Origin: a virus
Lineage: Duplodnaviria; Heunggongvirae; Uroviricota; Caudoviricetes
Reading direction: 5' to 3' (one strand)
Length of the DNA stretch: 64,000 bases
Virus record (IMG/VR): IMGVR_UViG_2839610755_000002
Part shown: positions 1,364-60,600 of the stretch, one piece after another
How positions within the stretch are numbered: position 1 is the stretch's first letter
Layout: every line of letters starts with the position of its first letter
Program-made: the position numbers and the translations under genes
The notes under the pieces: generated by a model
The model's database searches: none
Told to the model about the DNA's origin: nothing
The model's input: the letters and a program-made list of their open reading frames with translations, nothing else

Positions 1364-1673
1364 AATCGCAGCGCCATTAGGTGGAGATGCCATTATCGAA
1401 TTTGATGATAATGAAGAAGTTTCCGGGCGTTTAAGCATTATCTCCGGTGACATTACCGAGGACATGATCGCTGAAGCCATAGCTGGGGCAAATCCCAATA
1501 GCTATATGGGATTCGTTAACACCCTTGATGCTCCCGCAAGTGATGTTCTCCGAACGCTGCATCTTTACGCTGGCTGGTTTGTTGATTGGCCAGCAGTAGA
1601 TGGTGGCGATGAGGATGATGATGACGATGAAGAGGGTTTTAGTGATGAAACAGTCAACCAACTCTTGTATTGA
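1353..1673 (+). CDS. small acidic protein (C-terminal DEDDDDDEEG tract)
   Basis: ATG preceded by AAGGAG; overlaps upstream stop (coupled); function unknown. Confidence 0.45.
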   Translation: MQIKIAAPLGGDAIIEFDDNEEVSGRLSIISGDITEDMIAEAIAGANPNSYMGFVNTLDAPASDVLRTLHLYAGWFVDWPAVDGGDEDDDDDEEGFSDETVNQLLY

Positions 1674-1802
1674 CAGGAATTGGCATAGAATTGATTGTTC
1701 AAATTTCATCCATCACATAGACGACTTCATGTTATTTGCCTGATAATTATGGCCTTAATAACCCATGTATATCTTTTGGGTTATATTCTTATCTTTAACA
1801 AG

Positions 1803-1848
1803 GTTATAAGAGCGACAATGATAAATTTATCACTATCGCTCTTATAAC
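1803..1848. repeat. 46-bp near-perfect palindrome (23-bp arms, 3 central mismatches) in AT-rich convergent intergenic region
   Basis: gttataagagcgacaatgataaa / tttatcactatcgctcttataac read directly; lies between the 3' ends of two convergent ORFs. Confidence 0.6.
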
Positions 1849-1876
1849 TCTTTGTTAGCTATAGCTTTAAACAAAT

Positions 1877-2164
1877 TTAGTTTTGAGGCAATGCAACAAA
1901 AGTCAGCTCTTGATCTTTGATTAATGCTTTTGTTTGTTTGGATGTAATTCCCACTTTAGTTTTTACATCATTGTGGAGCTTCTTATACGCTTTTATTTCA
2001 TCTGCTGTATATCGGAAGCCATTTGCACTGTTACTGGACAGTTGAAGTGCGATTACGTCATCACTGACACCCGCATCGCTTAGCTTAGCTATGCGGGTAA
2101 TAGTGTGGCCTGCGCGAGTGTTTGTGGTGGATATTTTGTCTAAGAAATTGTTCAGTTTTTCCAT
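1877..2164 (-). CDS. hypothetical 95-aa protein
   Basis: ATG with AAGAGG RBS; own AT-rich upstream region; no recognisable domain. Confidence 0.45.
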   Translation of the reverse strand: MEKLNNFLDKISTTNTRAGHTITRIAKLSDAGVSDDVIALQLSSNSANGFRYTADEIKAYKKLHNDVKTKVGITSKQTKALIKDQELTFVALPQN

Positions 2165-2382
2165 TGTTTACAACCTCTTACTTGAGTTTATTGCCAGTAG
2201 AATTGCCACTATTCTTTTGCCTCAACGAATCACAATGTACTGGAATAAGAAACTATGAGCAATACTTACGCTTTGCGAATACAGAAGATGAATAATCAAC
2301 TTATTACTAAAATGTTAATAATATTATTCTGTTACATAGTGTTCGCTATAACAATCGGGAGTTGAATGCTAATTCAATAAAT

Positions 2383-2412
2383 AAAGAACCCGCCAATTGG
2401 CGGGTTCTTTTT
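2383..2412 (-). terminator. rho-independent terminator-like hairpin, usable in both directions
   Basis: AAAGAACCCGCC-AATT-GGCGGGTTCTTT followed by T-run; begins right after the stop of the 2411-3193 gene. Confidence 0.6.
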
Positions 2413-3193
2413 AATCACTTTCCACTTCTTCCGTGGTGTTTTCTTGCAGTTCTGTTAATGCAGCACGACATAGGTTCCGGGCATTGGCTATAGCCACACT
2501 TTTGACTTCATCCGTCATCGTGCAGGTAATGTACTGATCGAGTTCTTCAGCGCGGATGATGCTTTTGCCAATCAGAAACTGTATTTGCCAGAGCAGATCG
2601 GCATCCATAATCAGAATTTCTGCCGGGCCTTCAGGGCCAGCCGGGAAGGAAACATAAGACTGTTTGCCCAGGCCGACAACTCGACAACTTGCTTCAAGAA
2701 TTGCGCGCTTGAGGTCTGACTTTATAACGGAAACAGGTTGATTTTCACCAGTGATTACGCCGTTGACATGGAAAGGCATGTAGCTTGAAATACGCTCCAC
2801 TTTCCACACACCAGCAAGCGATCCTTCATGCAGCACAATGGGGGTAACCGCGAGTTTCATCTCACCATATAGCTGCTGGCAGATAGCTGGATTGCTGAAT
2901 ACATCTAAAGGCTCACATTCAAACAGCGGCGCAATCTGCATGAGGTCCATCATGGTCATCCCTGGGGTACGAGCAGTAATGAATCTGCGCATACCAGTAT
3001 CCATTGCGCTCCAGATTGCTACACCATGCTTTTTGCTCACTTCTTCAGTAAAGCCAAGGTGGCACATGATGGTTTTTTCGATAGCCAGATCAGAGATCGA
3101 AACCTTTTCGCCAGGCACACCATCATTATTGATGGTCACTTCGACACTCTGACCATTACGCAGGCGGTATTGAATTGCTTTAGTATTTTCCAC
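2411..3193 (-). CDS. hypothetical 260-aa protein, last gene of the ssb operon
   Basis: GTG start with GGAG RBS; start sits 9 nt after upstream stop; no recognisable motif. Confidence 0.55.
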   Translation of the reverse strand: MENTKAIQYRLRNGQSVEVTINNDGVPGEKVSISDLAIEKTIMCHLGFTEEVSKKHGVAIWSAMDTGMRRFITARTPGMTMMDLMQIAPLFECEPLDVFSNPAICQQLYGEMKLAVTPIVLHEGSLAGVWKVERISSYMPFHVNGVITGENQPVSVIKSDLKRAILEASCRVVGLGKQSYVSFPAGPEGPAEILIMDADLLWQIQFLIGKSIIRAEELDQYITCTMTDEVKSVAIANARNLCRAALTELQENTTEEVESD

Positions 3194-3199
3194 GTTAAA

Positions 3200-3877
3200 T
3201 CACTCCACTACAAACCAGTCACATGCCAGTAAGTCGCCTACAGAAGGAACCCACGGAACAACTACACCTTGTGCATTTTTTAAGGCGAAATAAGCACCAT
3301 ACGGAACGAGGTCGCCGGGGAAATATCCCTTAATGGCTTCCATTCGTGCCGGGTACTGTCCTTCAGGAACCAGCCAGCAGAATTGGTTTTCGCCGTTCCA
3401 CCCGCGTCGGGCAACTTTCTTGCCATCCTTCAGCCACATCAGCGCGTCAGAAAAGTCGGCTGCTTCAAGGTCGATTTCTTCTTGTAGAGTAGCGATACCG
3501 CCAGCAGAAATAGTTACGTCCCTGGCTGTAATGAATGTCACCCCATTGTGACCTTCAATGCTGAGCGATACCCCATTTTCGAAGAAGTCGTTAGTCCGAC
3601 TAAAGCCTTCTTCAAATGTTTTTTCTGGCGAATAGGACAGAGATCCGTCCTCATAAGCGACCAGATATCCGCCAATTTCTGGTCGGTGTTTTTGCAAAAA
3701 TATTTTATCAACATGGACTTTTACCCCTTCTGGCTCAACGACTTCGATGTTGCAAAAAAGGACCACATCCATTAGGGCGATAATTTCGATATCTTTGATT
3801 TTTGAGGCGCGAACTGTTTTATGGCTTTTGTATTTTGGAAGTGCCGTCAAAAGCTCTTTCGTTGTCATGTTATTCAT
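3200..3877 (-). CDS. two-domain protein with C-terminal DUF2829 (Tad2-like) domain
   Basis: Internal ATG (MNNMTTKELL) with AGAGGAAAG RBS chosen over the longer ORF; C-terminal about 80 aa (LKDGKKVARRGWNGENQFCWL...VVVPWVPSVGDLLACDWFVVE) matches the DUF2829 pattern as I recall it. Confidence 0.6.
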   Translation of the reverse strand: MNNMTTKELLTALPKYKSHKTVRASKIKDIEIIALMDVVLFCNIEVVEPEGVKVHVDKIFLQKHRPEIGGYLVAYEDGSLSYSPEKTFEEGFSRTNDFFENGVSLSIEGHNGVTFITARDVTISAGGIATLQEEIDLEAADFSDALMWLKDGKKVARRGWNGENQFCWLVPEGQYPARMEAIKGYFPGDLVPYGAYFALKNAQGVVVPWVPSVGDLLACDWFVVE

Positions 3878-4074
3878 AGTCTTTCCTCTGCTTAAAACCT
3901 GATGTATTGCGCCTTCAGGTGGGTCAGGAATGTTTTCCCACCAGCGAACGCAATATCTCGGGGTGTTCTTTTCGTGAAAAGCGCGTGCCATTGCCAACTT
4001 TGGCGTTTGTTTGCGAGTTCGTGCTTTTGTCGGCGTCTGGACCACCGCTTTTCTTTCAGTCGTTTTTTACACAT

Positions 4075-4563
4075 TCAAAACGGAATATCGTCGTCAAAGT
4101 CCATTGGAGGTTCGTTATTGGCGTTGCTCTGAGGTTTACCGCCACCACTGTATTGCTGGTGGTTTTGAGGTTGGTTTGATTGCCCCCAGCCATTTGAGGA
4201 CTGTGAATCGTCACGGCGAGCGCCGATCATTTGCATGGTGCCGCCCTGGCTGACGATAATTTCCGTCGTGTAACGTTCTACACCGGCGTCATCTGTCCAC
4301 TTACGGGTTTTAAGTTTCCCTTCGATGTAGACCTGAGAACCTTTTCGTAAATATTCACTCGCAATTTCAGCAAGTTTTCCGAACAAAACGACTTTATGCC
4401 ATTCTGTTTGCTCTTTCTGTTGGCCCGTTTGCTTGTCGCGCCATGATTCATTCGTTGCGATGCTGAGTCTTCCGACCGCTCCGCCATTTGGTATATACCT
4501 GATCTCCGGGTCTTGCCCCAGGGTACCAATCAGGATGACTTTGTTTACACCGCGTTGTGCCAC
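4075..4563 (-). CDS. ssb: single-stranded DNA-binding protein
   Basis: OB-fold SSB N-terminus ([15 protein letters not shown]), Gly/Gln-rich linker, acidic tail ending DFDDDIPF; GTG start with AGGTAAG RBS. Confidence 0.95.
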
Positions 4564-4582
4564 TTATCTTACCTAATAAAAT

Positions 4583-4599
4583 AAATTAATTAGAGCAAT
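4583..4599 (-). promoter_or_regulatory. C1 repressor operator-like 17-mer upstream of ssb
   Basis: Minus strand reads ATTGCTCTAATTAATTT (16/17 to the P1 operator consensus). Confidence 0.6.
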
Positions 4600-4732
4600 A
4601 ATGTATATCTTTGAAACGTAGCTAACAAGTGATTTGCATTATCCTGTGCCTTCTAAAGGGATCGAGTCAGTCGGTATTGGCTGTGAATGGGTGTTTGTCC
4701 TGGAGCGTAAAAAATTCGCTTATGAGGTCTTT

Positions 4733-5290
4733 ATGAAGGGAAAAACAGCCGCAGGAGGCGGTGCAATTTGCGCTATCGCGGTGATGATTACCATCGTGAT
4801 GGGTAATGGCAATGTGCGAACCAACCAGGCGGGGCTTGAGCTTATCGGAAACGCTGAAGGTTGCCGACGTGACCCATACATGTGCCCGGCGGGTGTATGG
4901 ACTGACGGGATTGGTAATACACACGGGGTAACGCCAGGCGTGCGAAAAACTGACCAGCAAATCGCCGCTGATTGGGAAAAGAATATCCTGATCGCTGAAC
5001 GCTGTATTAATCAGCACTTCCGGGGCAAAGACATGCCCGATAATGCCTTCAGTGCAATGACAAGCGCGGCATTCAATATGGGATGCAATAGTTTACGGAC
5101 CTACTACAGCAAAGCGCGAGGCATGCGAGTAGAAACGTCCATCCACAAGTGGGCGCAGAAAGGGGAATGGGTGAATATGTGTAACCATCTCCCTGATTTC
5201 GTGAACAGTAACGGCGTGCCCCTGCGAGGTTTAAAGATTCGCCGTGAAAAAGAACGCCAGCTTTGCCTGACGGGACTGGTCAATGAATAA
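4733..5290 (+). CDS. lyz: SAR endolysin, T4-type lysozyme
   Basis: N-terminal Gly/Ala-rich signal-anchor-release segment (KTAAGGGAICAIAVMITIVMG) followed by lysozyme catalytic region (ELIGNAEGCRRD...TDGIGNT); GAGGT RBS. Confidence 0.9.
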   Translation: MKGKTAAGGGAICAIAVMITIVMGNGNVRTNQAGLELIGNAEGCRRDPYMCPAGVWTDGIGNTHGVTPGVRKTDQQIAADWEKNILIAERCINQHFRGKDMPDNAFSAMTSAAFNMGCNSLRTYYSKARGMRVETSIHKWAQKGEWVNMCNHLPDFVNSNGVPLRGLKIRREKERQLCLTGLVNE

Positions 5291-5537
5291 ACTCCGGCAG
5301 CTCCGCCGACTTTCGACAATGAAGTTATCGCTGGCGGCGATAGTTTTCGACTCGATTTTCATGGCGGTATATGTGCTCAATGAGACGTGGCCACTGGAAC
5401 CGCTATTGTATGCCGGGCTTCGGCTGTGCCTGACATTTTTGAGCATGGCTGCAAGATTGATGCAGCAGAAAGAAACCGCTTCAGATTGTCCACGCCGCGC
5501 GGTGCGCAAATATATGGCACGCAGGCGAAGGCGATAA
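5283..5537 (+). CDS. small membrane-protein ORF overlapping lyz stop (uncertain)
   Basis: ATG overlaps lyz stop (ATGAATAA); two hydrophobic segments and Arg-rich C-terminus; lies before the lyz terminator; weak RBS. Confidence 0.3.
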   Translation: MNKLRQLRRLSTMKLSLAAIVFDSIFMAVYVLNETWPLEPLLYAGLRLCLTFLSMAARLMQQKETASDCPRRAVRKYMARRRRR

Positions 5538-5550
5538 TAGTTAACGAGAA

Positions 5551-5577
5551 CCCCGGCAGCCGCCGGGGTTATTTTTG
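5551..5577 (+). terminator. rho-independent terminator after lyz
   Basis: CCCCGGC-AGCC-GCCGGGG hairpin followed by TTATTTTT. Confidence 0.6.
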
Positions 5578-5581
5578 GTGG

Positions 5582-8312
<2,731 letters not shown>

Positions 8313-8378
8313 TTAATTAGAATAATTCGCATCGTGTTTGAACGGAATTTAACACTAGTCACTTGTTAAGGATTACCA

Positions 8379-9242
8379 ATGAACAAGCTATCTATGGGGG
8401 TGTTTCGCTGTTCAAGTGTCAGCGAAATATTGAAATACATTAGGGCAATAACATCTCACCGGGCGCCGATTAAATACGGCGTGGAAAAGGTGGAAGGCAA
8501 AAGCTATGACCGACTGCGCCGGGAGGCGAATCAGAAGGCGATAGATTTGCTTAATTCGCTGGTGGACGGCGCGACACTGACAGATGAACAGCGCCAGATC
8601 CTGGCTGGGTACACCGGTGAAGGTGGCATTGGCGGGGCCGTCTCCGAATATTACACACCAAAGCCGATCGCTGAAGGCGTCTGGGAGATCATGAAGCTCT
8701 ACGGCGCGGACGTAGGTAACACTCTGGAACCATCGGCGGGAACCGGCGTTTTTAATGAGACAAAACCGGTTGGTACGGTGATGACCGCGACTGAGATCAG
8801 CAGTGTTTCCGGTCGTATAAACCAGTTGTTACACCCGGAAGACAGCGTACAGATTTCCCCGTTCGAACAGCTGGCTATAAGCACGCCTAACGATTCATTC
8901 GACCATGTTGTGGGTAACGTTCCGTTCGGCGGTCGTGATAACACACGCAACATCGATAAGCCTTACGCAGAAGAAACGGACATGGGTTCTTACTTCATGC
9001 TCCGCATGCTGGACAAGATAAAGCCTGGCGGATTCATGTGTGTGATTGTGCCGCCGTCCATTGTTTCAGGTTCAAACATGAAGCGGTTACGCCTGCGCCT
9101 ATCCCGTAAAGCTGAATTTCTTGGCGCTCACCGCTTGCCTACCGGTACTTTTGACGCAAACGGGACCAGTACGGTCGTTGATGTGGTGCTGATGCGTAAA
9201 CATCCGGCAGAGATGGCTGAGAAAATCCCCCCTGGTGGATGA
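8379..9242 (+). CDS. darB: DarB-like protein, N-terminal fragment (N6-adenine methyltransferase domain), ended by frameshift
   Basis: SAM-binding motif LEPSAGTGVF and NPPF-like motif GNVPFGG; ORF stops 4 codons after a C6 run at 9227-9232 and the downstream ORF continues in the +1 frame. Confidence 0.75.
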   Translation: MNKLSMGVFRCSSVSEILKYIRAITSHRAPIKYGVEKVEGKSYDRLRREANQKAIDLLNSLVDGATLTDEQRQILAGYTGEGGIGGAVSEYYTPKPIAEGVWEIMKLYGADVGNTLEPSAGTGVFNETKPVGTVMTATEISSVSGRINQLLHPEDSVQISPFEQLAISTPNDSFDHVVGNVPFGGRDNTRNIDKPYAEETDMGSYFMLRMLDKIKPGGFMCVIVPPSIVSGSNMKRLRLRLSRKAEFLGAHRLPTGTFDANGTSTVVDVVLMRKHPAEMAEKIPPGG

Positions 9243-56933: not shown

Positions 56934-57598
56934 ACTTGCCGGGTACGTCTCCGGCGAGGGCTTCCACCTCCGTATGCTTTTCGGCGCACCGCGCCCTGGC
57001 TGCAATTCGGTAACAGGGGATGCATAACCCTGGCTTCCAGCGTGATTAGCGCCTTCAGCATGACGGGATATACCCGTAAATTCGTGGAACTGTACCCAAA
57101 GTGCTGTTAAGCACCGCTGTTACGCTGAAAAGAAAACGCAACAGGAAAGGACGCTGACCAACAGATGGCCCCTTCTCGTTCATCTGGTTAATCACACCAG
57201 CGCCCTTACCTGTTGTGCCTCCCCGTTCCCTAATACACAGACGGGGACACTCTGCGGTCGATTTTTTGACGGGGGACGACTCATACCCCATGGCATCTGG
57301 CTTCTTAGGCCGCTACCATCATCAGATCATCGTTTGCATTTACTTTAATGGTCAGTTTCTAAACCGCCGCAAAGTCGCTAACCATGACGAAAACCCTGAA
57401 AAAAACGCCCACCCGAAGATGGGCAAACTGGACGCTCGTAACGCACTTCGGCGTTGCCACTTAGGCGCATGGTCAACCTGGCAACTCGGTGGTTTGTCTG
57501 GGAGGACTAGGCCCAGCCATGCTTACCGCCGCGCCTGTCGCGGCTAACAGCTAAATCGCTCTATAAATCACGATTCATTGAGGTGATATTACACTAAT

Positions 57599-57615
57599 AA
57601 ATTTATTAGAGCAAT
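57599..57615 (-). promoter_or_regulatory. C1 operator, perfect consensus
   Basis: Minus strand reads ATTGCTCTAATAAATTT exactly; overlaps the dmt stop. Confidence 0.65.
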
Positions 57616-60600
57616 ATACCCAAAACGTCATGAGCTACACCTCGAGTGTCCCCCTTACAAGACACAGAACGTCTGGCAAAAAGAGGTTCCACTCTGAAGC
57701 CACTGTCATGATAAAGCTCTCTGATGTTTGGCGCGCCACTGTTAGTAATGAGAACCTTTGCACCTCGACGATGAGCATCCGTCAACAGAGACACCAGGCG
57801 TTTTTGCTCTTCAAACTTAAAGTCATGACCGGAATAGTTCGTGAATCCCTCTGTATTTGGAAGCGGTTCATACGGCGGATCGCAAAAGATGACATCTCCT
57901 TCTCCGGCAGCTTCAATCACCGCTGCAAAATCACCGCATACAAACTCAGACCGCCCTTCCGCACCGAGGAAGGCTTCCATCTCCTGTAATGGGAAATACG
58001 GAGTTTTATACTTCCCATAACCGACATTGAACTCACCGGCCTGGTTGTAACGCGTCAATCCGTTAAAACAATGTCGGTTCAGGAACAAAAACGCCGCTGC
58101 GCGATGTAAATCATCATAGACTTGTTTGTTAAACGCATTCCGTACTGCCAGGTATCCTTCCTGTGTGTTGTAGTCCTGGAAGAAACGATGTGCCAGAGTG
58201 ATAAGTGAATGCGCCTCGCGTTGCAGAGTCTTGTAAAAGTTAATCAGGTCAGCATTCACATCATTTAGCAGATTTTCCTGGTATCCGGCATTCATGAAGA
58301 CAGCTCCGCCACCAACGAAAGGTTCAATCAGGCGCTTCCCTTCTGGCAAATAGCGAAAGATTTGTTCCAGAACACCAAATTTTCCACCAGCCCATTTGAA
58401 TATGGACCGTTCGAATTCTGCCGCTGGTTTAACTTTTCGCTCTTTTGTTTCACTTCCTTCTTTCTGCCGACATACGGCCTTAGTAATCCGATCGCCAATC
58501 CAGCGCATTACTGGTATTGCCATACTATTGCCGATCGCTTTGTAACGCGGTCCGTCAGCTGCAAGCATTGCGGCCTCTTCTTCGCTTAAATCTGGATAGT
58601 GATTGTGCAGATATGCCAGTTCATCTGAATTAACTTTTTTACGCTTTTCCGTAGGGATCAACGTATGCCAATCAGGAAAACCTTGCAGCCTTTCACATTC
58701 GACAGGGGTAAGACGGCGCATTCTACCGTCGCCGAGCAATACAATTGGTGCTTCATGGTTACATGTCAAAGTTGGTGCCGAATTATCGGTTTTTATCTCA
58801 GCCCCTCCTTGCCCATGTGCCATGGCAATTATGTTTGTATCATCGCAAGTTCTGATAGCGATGTTTGAAGTATATCTGGTAGTTTCCTTCCCCTCGCCTC
58901 TGCTCGGCGCAATATTCCGGCGCACGCCTTCGAACTCAAAAAGTACCGTTGCGGGATCGAGATCTGTTCGAGCACTTGCGACAACAAACACGCGTCGGCG
59001 TCGTTGTGCCACTCCGAAGTATTGGGCATCAAGGATTCTCCAGGCCACTTTTCGCTGCGGTCCATAAATACAACCACACTGCGGCCACTTTGGAACATGG
59101 CAACCGGTTTTGCCATCCCACCGCCAGAACGCGTTGCTTTTTCCTGATTCAGGTCGATCACCTGGTTCAAATGGCACATCTTCTCCAGCCAATCCGGCAA
59201 GGAAACATCCGAAGGCGTTATCTGCCGATGACAAGACTCCTGGGACATTTTCCCAGACGATAACGGCTGGTTTGAGAAATGACTCAGCCCGTTTGTCGTC
59301 AATTGCATTTGCAAGCTCCACATACTTTAAAGTTAGCGCGCCACGCTCATCATCAAGCCCACCACGTAATCCCGCGATACTGAATGCCTGACAGTTATGG
59401 ACCACCGCACCATTGAGGATATAGGAATGATCACCTTCGACTTCTATGTTGTATACAGTATCTAGGCCTACCGATTTAAACTCTTTGACTGTTCGTAAAA
59501 GCATTCCATGAGCCAATCTTGATTTACGTGACAATTTCTGCGGGCAGATTGTTACCTGATAATAATTCCGTTGATTTACCACGCGATCCTCGATCACTTT
59601 TTTGGGCTCAACTTCAATAAAGCTGACCGAAGAAACATAACCACAAGTCTGTGACAACCCCGCAACGCCCCAAGCAAGCGCAGAACTAACACTATTAATT
59701 CTAAATCCCGCTTTACCACTTGGTGTCCCATCAGTATCAAGATAGCCTTGTAAAAACACATGACGCAATGGATGCGACATCACCCATGCAGGGATACGCT
59801 TAGCATGGCTTAACTCGCCAAAATGTTCATTAAGCCAATTGGCATAACACGTATCATTCAAGGTTACTTTGATGCTCCCTCGGATTTCGCTTGCCACGGA
59901 AAATATGTTTTCTGGTATGCGGCAATGAAACTTTCTCAATTTCTGGCAATTTATGCCAAAAACAACCGCCTTCTTAGATTTACCTCTCCATCTCCTAATA
60001 TATCCATCGCCAACATAAGCGCCCGCAAGATACATAGCCTGTTCTTCAGACAAGAACCGAGAACAAATATCTGGAAATGCAATATTGAAATTAGTTAGAG
60101 CGCACCATTGATATCCCGGCATATCACATGCTGCTCGCCATTCCGGTTCAGACAACAACTCTCTCTTAAAATATGTGCCATTTTTCCGGGTGTTTTGGGC
60201 TTTCCACCGAACAGCCAGGAAGGGATGGTCATTGGTTGTTCTTATACCTAAAGGCTGCCCAACGGCATTAAGTAACCCCGTATTAGCTATTTTTGAACCA
60301 ACTCTTTTTACTTGTTGTAACCGCCCGAGATGACTGACTACGTAATCACCAGGGCAAACATTTTCTATTGGTTTATAGCCATTTTTACAAAGAACCATAT
60401 GCCCCGCGGTAAAACATGGTGTTCCCCCGACGAGCACGTCAGGGGATTCGATTTCCCCAGCCAAGACTTTTTTGGCAAGTTTTTTCATGTCGCCAAGGTT
60501 GGCAACATGGGGCCAGCGGAGCGCAAGAACGGCCGATGGAAAAGGCTCGATTTCAGCAAACCACGCCGGACGCATACCCAACGGTTCCCAGGCAATACTC

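What the first reader, a model, noticed from the sequence alone, without database searches (positions are those of the whole stretch)
3200..3877. DUF2829 (Tad2-like) domain fused to an unknown N-terminal domain inside the ssb operon
The C-terminal about 80 aa fit the DUF2829 pattern, the family that includes the Thoeris anti-defence protein Tad2, a sponge for cyclic ADP-ribose signals. Here it is fused to an unrelated 145-aa N-terminal domain and co-transcribed with ssb, an early position suited to counter-defence. The downstream 260-aa gene in the same operon is also unassigned.
Basis: partly seen in the sequence, partly recalled or inferred. Interest (0 to 1): 0.55.

Follow-up and report, generated by a model that had tools for sequence, protein, structure and literature searches.

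The report
Two-domain Tad2 sponge in P1-like phage
A P1-like phage carries, just after its early ssb gene, a protein whose tail is a clear member of the Tad2 family (phage proteins that soak up bacterial alarm molecules) and whose head is an unnamed small barrel domain that, across thousands of phages, keeps turning up fused or next to other such 'sponge' proteins.

Summary

Two corrections. The N-terminal part is not one 145-aa domain: it is a ~90-aa OB-fold barrel (aa 10-97), homologous to the phage L Dec OB domain, plus a ~40-aa low-confidence linker. The nearest characterised relative binds His-ADPR and cUMP/cCMP rather than gcADPR.

The Tad2 call is already made in public annotation, and the gene is common in P1-like plasmids. 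The new lead is the OB domain: at least 3,289 clusters, no Pfam or NCBIfam model. In longer proteins its only recognisable partners are four known sponge-associated Pfam families. Known sponge genes are enriched within 1.6 kb. It may be an undescribed anti-signalling module; this is untested.

The parts
4537..4648 (-). ssb promoter/operator region (P1ssb, C1 operator Ossb at 4583-4599, P2ssb). It drives the operon and is repressed by C1 in the lysogen.
   Evidence: 112 nt are 100% identical to the P1 region that carries these annotated features; the operator sequence ATTGCTCTAATTAATTT was found at 4583.
4075..4563 (-). ssb, first gene of the operon
   Evidence: PF00436 SSB at E=7e-40; annotated ssb in P1, SJ46 and Ro157c2YLVW.
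3878..4074 (-). 197-nt spacer between ssb and the Tad2-like gene. It contains the Shine-Dalgarno GAGGAAAG (3881-3888) and an in-frame upstream GTG (4045) that some records use as the start (281 aa).
   Evidence: Sequence read; ORF list; SJ46 annotates 846 nt and Ro157c2YLVW 678 nt. P1 keeps this spacer and the same RBS context in front of isaA.
3587..3850 (-). N-terminal OB-fold module (aa 10-97), motif LPxYxSHKxVxAxKI ... KHxPxxGGYxVxYEDGxxSYSPxxxFEEG
3470..3586 (-). Variable linker (aa 98-136), low-confidence in the model
   Evidence: pLDDT <50 for 98-106 and 108-136. This segment varies in length, is replaced or is absent in homologues (alignment A1).
3203..3469 (-). Tad2-like sponge domain (aa 137-225); stop codon at 3200-3202
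2411..3193 (-). isaA homologue (260 aa, GTG start 6 nt after the Tad2-like stop codon); function unknown; conserved downstream partner
   Evidence: 94.6% identical to residues 60-320 of P1 IsaA. phrog_2326, unknown function, at E=1.5e-149. No Pfam or PDB match. A 48%-identical homologue follows the OB-Tad2 gene in D6-like elements.
2383..2410 (-). Terminator-like hairpin that ends the operon
   Evidence: 12-pair stem with 7 GC pairs followed by a T-rich tail.

Best explanation
The gene encodes a two-module counter-defence protein of a P1-like temperate phage. It is transcribed with ssb from the C1-repressed ssb promoter, so it would be made as soon as repression is absent, on infection or induction. 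This timing is inferred from the P1 annotation. The C-terminal 89 residues form a Tad2-type domain. By analogy with solved Tad2 proteins it should assemble into a homotetramer whose inter-protomer pockets bind and sequester a TIR-derived ADP-ribose signal, keeping the Thoeris effector off. The nearest characterised relative is ModTad2. The most likely ligands are therefore His-ADPR (type II Thoeris) and possibly cUMP/cCMP (Pycsar) at a second interface; gcADPR remains possible. The N-terminal OB-fold barrel is joined through a flexible ~40-aa linker. It is most likely a second, autonomous anti-signalling module (a further ligand-binding sponge or a close functional partner of sponges), making the protein a dual inhibitor like the published Tad2-Acb4 and Tad2-Sequestin fusions. 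Shown here: domain identity, fold, conserved contact residues, operon structure, distribution, and the fusion and neighbourhood statistics. Inferred: oligomeric state, ligand identity, any activity of the OB module, and early expression.
Against: No binding, oligomerisation or anti-defence assay exists for this protein or any close homologue that I could find. The residues lining the adenine side of the SPO1 pocket (I63, T65, D67, H71, T78) are L199, N201, Q203, V207 and G214 here, so ligand specificity cannot be read off. The His-ADPR contacts of ModTad2 were not available to me. About a quarter of the sponge homologues tested in 10.1101/2025.08.24.671296 inhibited none of seven systems. For the OB module the evidence is only guilt by fusion and neighbourhood. 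Most of its family members have no recognisable sponge nearby. The neighbourhood contrast is modest (roughly p=0.03, my own hand estimate). Its only solved relative, Dec, binds capsids, not nucleotides. No known sponge family has an OB fold (PMC13243611).
Confidence: 0.7

Rival explanations
1. Only the Tad2 domain is a sponge. The OB-fold module is a passive or auxiliary part (solubility, higher-order assembly, or docking onto a phage or host protein) with no ligand of its own.
For: The only solved homologue, the phage L Dec OB domain, is a protein-binding (capsid-binding) module (6e3c hits; its role is my own knowledge of the Dec literature). The module sits on a flexible linker. It occurs on either side of Tad2 (P0253 has Tad2 first). 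In close relatives it can be swapped for a dUTPase or a PGDYG-like module while the Tad2 domain stays 80-98% identical.
Against: The module is most often a stand-alone ~90-aa protein in phages, so it must function on its own. Its ~20 invariant or near-invariant residues include H19, K20, Y71, Y75, D77, Y79, S81 and S83, more than a passive tag would need. Its recognisable fusion partners come only from the four sponge-associated Pfam families, not just Tad2.
Confidence: 0.3
2. The protein is an anti-CRISPR of the AcrIIA7 type, since DUF2829 was first linked to Cas9 inhibition.
Against: The Tad2 discovery paper notes that Cas9 binding was never shown and argues that the family is anti-Thoeris. 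The same HgmTad2 was solved with cADPR and cGG bound (8kbj, 8kbk). From general knowledge, E. coli and Salmonella hosts of P1-like phages carry type I, not type II, CRISPR-Cas. The window protein is closer to ModTad2 than to AcrIIA7.
Confidence: 0.03
3. The protein works in DNA metabolism with SSB: the OB fold binds single-stranded DNA and the location in the ssb operon reflects a replication or recombination role.
Confidence: 0.05

Closest known systems
ModTad2 / MoTad2 (Myroides odoratus prophage Tad2; PDB 9EIB with His-ADPR, 8V3E apo)
   Different: ModTad2 is a stand-alone 89-aa protein, whereas this one carries a 136-aa N-terminal extension. ModTad2's binding of His-ADPR and cUMP/cCMP is shown experimentally; nothing is shown for this protein. 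The His-ADPR contact residues could not be compared.
SPO1 Tad2 (Gp34.65; PDB 8SME/8SMF/8SMG), founding member, gcADPR sponge
   Same: Same fold (Foldseek E about 1e-5 to 1e-6). Core contacts W25/N26/W73/S76/D79 are conserved as W160/N161/W209/S212/D215.
   Different: Only about 33% identity. The adenine-side and water-coordinating residues I63, T65, D67, H71 and T78 are replaced (L, N, Q, V, G). SPO1 Tad2 is single-domain.
Sponge-sponge fusion proteins (Acb4-Tad2 of Pasteurella phage Pm86; Tad2-Sequestin; Sequestin-Acb4), bioRxiv 10.1101/2025.07.12.664507
   Same: A Tad2 domain joined by a linker to a second small phage module. Close relatives of this very Tad2 domain (about 80-85% identical) carry a C-terminal Sequestin domain (P0061).
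   Different: The partner here is an OB-fold module with no Pfam model and no demonstrated ligand. The published fusion survey searched Pfam families only, so this partner would not have been found.
Phage L decoration protein Dec, N-terminal OB-fold domain (PDB 6E3C)
   Different: From my own knowledge, Dec has a C-terminal trimeric spike and decorates capsids; that part is absent here. The family here is mostly ~90-aa stand-alone proteins in clusters of small genes next to replication or packaging genes, and some are fused to sponges.
P1 IsaA / canonical P1 ssb-isaA region
   Same: Same operon frame: ssb, the same spacer and ribosome-binding context, then isaA.
   Different: P1 lacks the 684-bp Tad2-like cassette, and IS1 plus isaB lie beyond isaA. 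P1's annotated 320-aa IsaA starts at the upstream GTG, so it includes the 57-codon spacer.

Membership tests
Tad2 (Pfam PF11195, Thoeris anti-defence 2-like) | Sequence match to the family profile above the curated threshold | tested here: met
   80.2 bits against a 25-bit cut-off, E=1.6e-22, profile positions 2-73 of 73.
Tad2 (Pfam PF11195, Thoeris anti-defence 2-like) | [quoted passage not shown] | tested here: met
Tad2 (Pfam PF11195, Thoeris anti-defence 2-like) | Conserved ligand-pocket residues (SPO1 W25, N26, W73, D79; S76 coordinates water) | tested here: met
   They align with W160, N161, W209, D215 and S212. W160, W209 and D215 are invariant and S212 is at least 90% conserved in 50 homologues.
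Tad2 (Pfam PF11195, Thoeris anti-defence 2-like) | Homotetramer with two inter-protomer pockets | not testable with these tools
Tad2 (Pfam PF11195, Thoeris anti-defence 2-like) | Binds a TIR-derived signal and abolishes Thoeris defence | not testable with these tools
   Needs biochemistry and phage assays. No paper in the held library reports a test of a P1-type or OB-fused Tad2.
ModTad2 subclade (His-ADPR / cUMP binders) | Closer to ModTad2 than to gcADPR-binding Tad2 proteins | tested here: met
   E=8e-21 to ModTad2, against 9e-12 (HgmTad2) and 1e-9 (SPO1 Tad2) for the isolated C-domain.
ModTad2 subclade (His-ADPR / cUMP binders) | Conservation of the His-ADPR and cUMP pocket residues | tested here: inconclusive
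At 46-49% identity specificity may differ.
Dual-sponge fusion proteins | Two domains, each a demonstrated signal sponge | tested here: inconclusive
   One domain is Tad2. The OB partner has only associative evidence.
Dec-type capsid decoration proteins | OB-fold domain homologous to Dec | tested here: met
Dec-type capsid decoration proteins | C-terminal trimerising spike and a late, structural gene context | tested here: not met
   The C-terminus here is a Tad2 domain. The gene is in the C1-controlled ssb operon, not a late operon.
AcrIIA7 anti-CRISPR | Homology to AcrIIA7 (which is HgmTad2) | tested here: met
   8kbi/9kzr at E=4e-10 and 1e-9. The same protein is a cADPR/cGG sponge (8kbj, 8kbk).
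AcrIIA7 anti-CRISPR | Inhibition of Cas9 | not testable with these tools
   The mechanism was never shown, according to bioRxiv 10.1101/2023.05.01.538930.

The most novel reading that the evidence does not exclude
The N-terminal OB-fold barrel (aa 10-97) belongs to a very large, unnamed phage protein family: at least 3,289 clusters at 90% identity and 2,514 representatives at 50%. This family may be a new class of inhibitor of nucleotide immune signalling, either a new sponge family with an OB fold or an obligate partner of sponges. The P1-like protein would then be a natural dual inhibitor. The family would have been missed by the published fusion-based search, which used Pfam families only.
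Probability: 0.35. Interest if true: 0.8.

Novelty: new variant of a known kind. Interest (0 to 1): 0.6.

Why it matters
The Tad2 assignment by itself adds little. Pfam already names the domain, and NCBI and UniRef already label these proteins. It would nonetheless give P1-like phage-plasmids, which are abundant in clinical and food-chain E. coli and Salmonella, a predicted counter-measure against TIR-based (Thoeris) and perhaps Pycsar immunity. The laboratory strain P1 naturally lacks the gene, which gives a ready-made isogenic test. The larger value is the N-terminal module. If it proves to be a new signal-sequestering or sponge-assisting family, thousands of 'hypothetical' ~90-aa phage genes would gain a function. 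New sponges have also repeatedly served as tools to capture and identify unknown immune signals, as happened with His-ADPR and 3'cADPR. The locus also shows how counter-defence modules are shuffled: OB, dUTPase, PGDYG-like and Sequestin partners occur on one nearly identical Tad2 domain.

Tried and rejected
1. A single-sequence AlphaFold run gave mean pLDDT 34 and was unusable. It was repeated with a 50-sequence alignment.
2. No text supplements are held for the sponge-diversity preprint, so I could not check whether an OB-fused or P1-type Tad2 was among its 18 tested homologues.
3. Literature searches for an OB-fold sponge or other newly named sponge families found nothing. 'OB-fold' occurs in none of the sponge papers listed. 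TadIV-1 (T4 vs.3) is helical and unrelated. No match to the Lockin termini I hand-translated from the published primer sequences (approximate, not a tool result).
4. Pfam, NCBIfam and PHROGs give no function for the OB module. BFVD lists only 'uncharacterized' proteins and a MazG fusion.
5. The 260-aa isaA homologue has no Pfam, no PDB hit and only a PHROG of unknown function.
6. I tested whether an IsaA-like gene always follows Tad2 fusions. It does not: in another type of ~90-kb contig (likely phage-plasmid) the downstream 226-aa gene is unrelated.
7. The 2,604-aa 'hit' with eight stretches is a bacterial Ig-repeat protein and is spurious, so some of the weakest of the 2,514 hits may be false.
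8. My first greedy six-frame ORF caller lost many OB genes in GC-rich loci. It was replaced by a same-strand caller anchored on the match.

Full report
**What the window is.** The region is more than 96% identical to Escherichia phage P1 and 99.7% identical to the P1-like phage vB_EcoM-Ro157c2YLVW. Its gene order is that of P1: darB side, portal, pro, lyz, ssb. The finding lies just downstream of ssb on the minus strand.

**Observation check.**
- Window 3200-3877 (minus) is an ORF of 225 codons. It starts at an ATG preceded by GAGGAAAG at 3881-3888.
- Residues 141-224 match Pfam PF11195, now named 'Tad2-like' (formerly DUF2829), at E=1.6e-22 and 80 bits against a 25-bit threshold.
- Nothing in Pfam matches the first ~135 residues.
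- An in-frame GTG at 4045 could extend the ORF to 281 aa, as annotated in phage SJ46. Homologues in unrelated contexts begin at the MNN/MDN position. The 678-nt form is also what RefSeq annotates in Ro157c2YLVW. ATG 3877 is therefore the likelier start.

**Operon structure.**
- ssb (4075-4563), the Tad2-like gene and the 260-aa gene (2411-3193, GTG start 6 nt after the preceding stop codon) lie head to tail on the minus strand.
- The scan found no minus-strand promoter-like or terminator-like site between them. A 12-bp GC-rich hairpin with a T tract sits directly after the third gene, at 2410-2383.
- The 112 nt upstream of ssb (4537-4648) are 100% identical to the P1 segment annotated with promoters P1ssb and P2ssb and the C1 repressor operator Ossb (Op21). 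The operator is at 4583-4599.
- Co-transcription with ssb from a C1-repressed promoter is therefore well supported by annotation transfer. It is not shown experimentally here.

**Canonical P1.** P1 aligns with window 3874-8701 (98.6%) and with 2411-3189 (93.8%), but has nothing for 3190-3873.
- At the junction, P1 reads ...GAGAAAAGACT ATG ACA GCA CAA AAT ACT AAA..., so isaA sits directly behind the ribosome-binding context that precedes the Tad2-like gene in the window.
- The window has a 684-bp cassette there, and isaA restarts with GTG GAA AAT ACT AAA.
- P1 thus lacks exactly this gene and keeps isaA. P1's annotated 320-aa IsaA is the 57-codon spacer read in frame plus the 260-aa homologue (94.6% identity over residues 60-320).
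- P7 has nmpC on the other strand at this site.
- In PLSDB, P1-type ssb is found in 500 plasmids, the Tad2-like gene in 229 (193 with at least 80% coverage) and isaA in 406. The gene is a common accessory gene of P1-like phage-plasmids and is annotated as 'DUF2829 domain-containing protein'.

**The C-terminal domain.**
- phmmer against PDB sequences gives ModTad2 (9EIB, 8V3E) at E about 1e-20, HgmTad2/AcrIIA7 at about 1e-10 to 1e-11, and SPO1 Tad2 at about 1e-9.
- The Tad2 discovery paper lists W25, W73, N26 and D79 as the main contacts with gcADPR, and S76, T78, I63, T65, D67 and H71 as secondary or water-mediated contacts.
- In the HMMER alignment the main contacts correspond to W160, W209, N161 and D215, and S76 to S212. 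These are conserved. T78, I63, T65, D67 and H71 correspond to G214, L199, N201, Q203 and V207, which differ.
- W160, W209 and D215 are invariant across 50 homologues.
- The domain therefore passes every membership test that can be run in silico.
- ModTad2 did not inhibit type I Thoeris. It sequesters His-ADPR, the type II Thoeris signal, and binds cUMP/cCMP at a second interface, inhibiting Pycsar. Other Tad2 proteins bind N7-cADPR or cyclic dinucleotides.
- Which signal this protein binds cannot be decided from sequence. His-ADPR is the best guess on phylogenetic proximity alone.

**The N-terminal part.** The model shows a confident barrel for aa 10-97 (pLDDT 81-93 per 10-residue block) and a low-confidence stretch at 98-136. 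That stretch varies in length, is replaced or is missing in homologues.
- An exhaustive phmmer of aa 1-135 against 1.84 billion cluster representatives found 2,514 proteins at E<=1e-3. The matched core was always about aa 10-97. Many hits are stand-alone proteins of 83-100 aa.
- A profile of 38 stand-alone members (A2) shows a strong motif: LPxYxCHKxVxAxKI ... KHxPxxGGYxVxYEDGYxSxSPAKAFEEGY.
- Pfam and NCBIfam have no model for it. PHROGs 11049, 872, 9467 and 32732 are 'unknown function'.
- A profile search of the 5.8-billion-protein collection returned 3,289 clusters, nearly all unnamed.

**What the OB module associates with.**
1. Fusions. I scanned 96 longer representatives that contain the module against Pfam. 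Only four families appeared at E<=1e-3: Sequestin PF21825 (7), Acb4 PF13876 (5), Tad2 PF11195 (5) and the Acb2/Tad1 hairpin PF24729 (1). These are all families of phage proteins that sequester immune nucleotides. Examples are P0246 (OB + Acb4 + Sequestin) and P0253 (Tad2 + OB, reverse order).
2. Neighbourhood. In 73 non-duplicate IMG/VR loci I called same-strand ORFs of 55-200 aa within 1.6 kb of the OB gene.
   - Pfam found Acb4, Acb2/Tad1 hairpin, Tad2 or Sequestin in 10-11 of 341 such ORFs.
   - In the two neighbour-only batches these were the only families seen more than once. In the third, mixed batch they were likewise the only repeats. The total is my tally.
   - Five of the 29 OB-containing ORFs of at least 125 aa were fusions to Tad2 or Acb4.
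   - A control set of 145 ORFs of the same size, 2 kb or more away in the same loci, gave none. The one-sided hypergeometric probability is roughly 0.03, by my own hand estimate.
3. Individual loci.
   - L008 has Tad2 - orf - OB - three orfs - Acb4, just upstream of the terminase gene.
   - L027 has a Tad2+Sequestin gene 27 bp upstream of an OB+Acb4 gene.
   - L064 and L070 have an OB+Tad2 gene overlapping an Acb4 gene.

A 2025 preprint showed that sponge domains are frequently fused to each other. It used fusion to Tad2 or Acb4 to discover Sequestin, but it searched Pfam families only. A 2026 paper counts Tad1, Tad2, Acb2, Acb4, Sequestin, Lockin and TadIV-1 as the known sponge families. None is described there as an OB fold, and I found no description of this module in the held literature.

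**Modularity around this Tad2 domain.** Proteins whose Tad2 domain is 80-98% identical to the window's carry other partners: a dUTPase (P0056), a PGDYG-like module (P0057, P0068, P0073) or a C-terminal Sequestin (P0061).
- In D6 and D6-like Salmonella and E. coli elements the order is cre-like integrase, two ORFs, dUTPase, the Tad2-like gene (146 aa in D6 itself; the 222-aa OB-Tad2 fusion, 83% identical, in D6-like elements), an IsaA homologue (48% identical), then doc/phd.
- The OB-Tad2 gene and isaA therefore travel as a pair independently of ssb. This argues against a replication role and for a mobile accessory cassette.
- In a third type of ~90-kb contig (likely phage-plasmid) the downstream gene is unrelated.

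**Mechanism proposed.** On infection or induction, loss of C1 repression allows transcription of ssb, the OB-Tad2 gene and isaA. The Tad2 domains assemble, presumably as tetramers, and sequester a TIR-derived signal before it can activate the effector. The signal is most likely His-ADPR, with cUMP/cCMP or a cADPR isomer as alternatives. The OB module, tethered by a flexible linker, most likely provides a second, independent anti-signalling activity.
- Confidence is about 0.8 that the C-domain is a functional signal sponge.
- Confidence is about 0.35 that the OB module is itself a signal binder.
- Confidence is about 0.3 that the OB module is merely auxiliary.
- The isaA homologue remains unassigned.

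**Verdict.** The Tad2 call is correct but already public knowledge. The specificity claim (cyclic ADP-ribose) is uncertain. The 'unknown 145-aa domain' resolves into a Dec-like OB module plus a linker. That module's exclusive association with sponge-associated Pfam families is the part worth following up.

Noticed in passing
window 3878-4074 and P1 locus L001 4001-4963: P1's annotated IsaA (320 aa, GTG start) appears over-extended. Its first 57 codons are the ssb-isaA spacer, and an ATG with the same RBS context as the window's Tad2-like gene (GAGAAAAGACT ATG) precedes the conserved 260-aa part. The difference between P1 and the window is a clean 684-bp gene-sized indel.
   Followed up: partly
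window 1629-2410, including ORF 1877-2164 (minus, 95 aa): This segment has no counterpart in P1, which carries isaB and IS1 here instead. The 95-aa ORF has no Pfam or PHROG match and is annotated as hypothetical in Ro157c2YLVW.
   Followed up: no
P0056 (241 aa) and phage D6 locus L004 3548-4497: D6 has separate dUTPase and DUF2829 genes. Some E. coli elements encode a single dUTPase-Tad2 fusion whose junction lies at an AGGI motif, shared with the window protein's ...SAGGIATLQEE; by my own knowledge this sits near the dUTPase C-terminal glycine-rich motif. This looks like recombination at a short shared sequence.
   Followed up: no
L027 465-1708 (IMG/VR UViG_3300024966_000042): Two adjacent genes encode four small modules: Tad2+Sequestin (162 aa), then 27 bp later OB+Acb4 (243 aa). 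This is a compact multi-sponge locus.
   Followed up: partly
phrog_37613; BFVD A0A384WK77 (Vibrio phage vB_VpaS_KF6, 394 aa): The OB module also occurs in proteins labelled MazG-like pyrophosphatase, another nucleotide-directed activity. One OB-locus ORF (neighbour or fusion not resolved) carries a RyR domain, which a 2026 preprint links to degradation of ADPR-based signals.
   Followed up: no
P0134 (2,604 aa): A giant bacterial Ig-like repeat protein (Big_13 and Big_6) scored E=3.7e-13 against the N-terminal query through eight partial repeat matches. This is a false positive, and it warns that the weakest hits in the 2,514 count may include noise.
   Followed up: yes
window 57596-57616 and other sites: Short near-matches to the C1 operator region of ssb occur elsewhere in the window (for example 95% over 21 nt at 57596-57616). 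They are presumably further C1 operators, as in P1.
   Followed up: no
L090 and L091 (about 90-kb Logan contigs): In another type of ~90-kb contig (likely phage-plasmid), Tad2+Sequestin and PGDYG-like+Tad2 fusions occupy the same slot, between a RecA-dependent nuclease gene and a higBA module. This suggests a second hotspot for Tad2 variants.
   Followed up: partly
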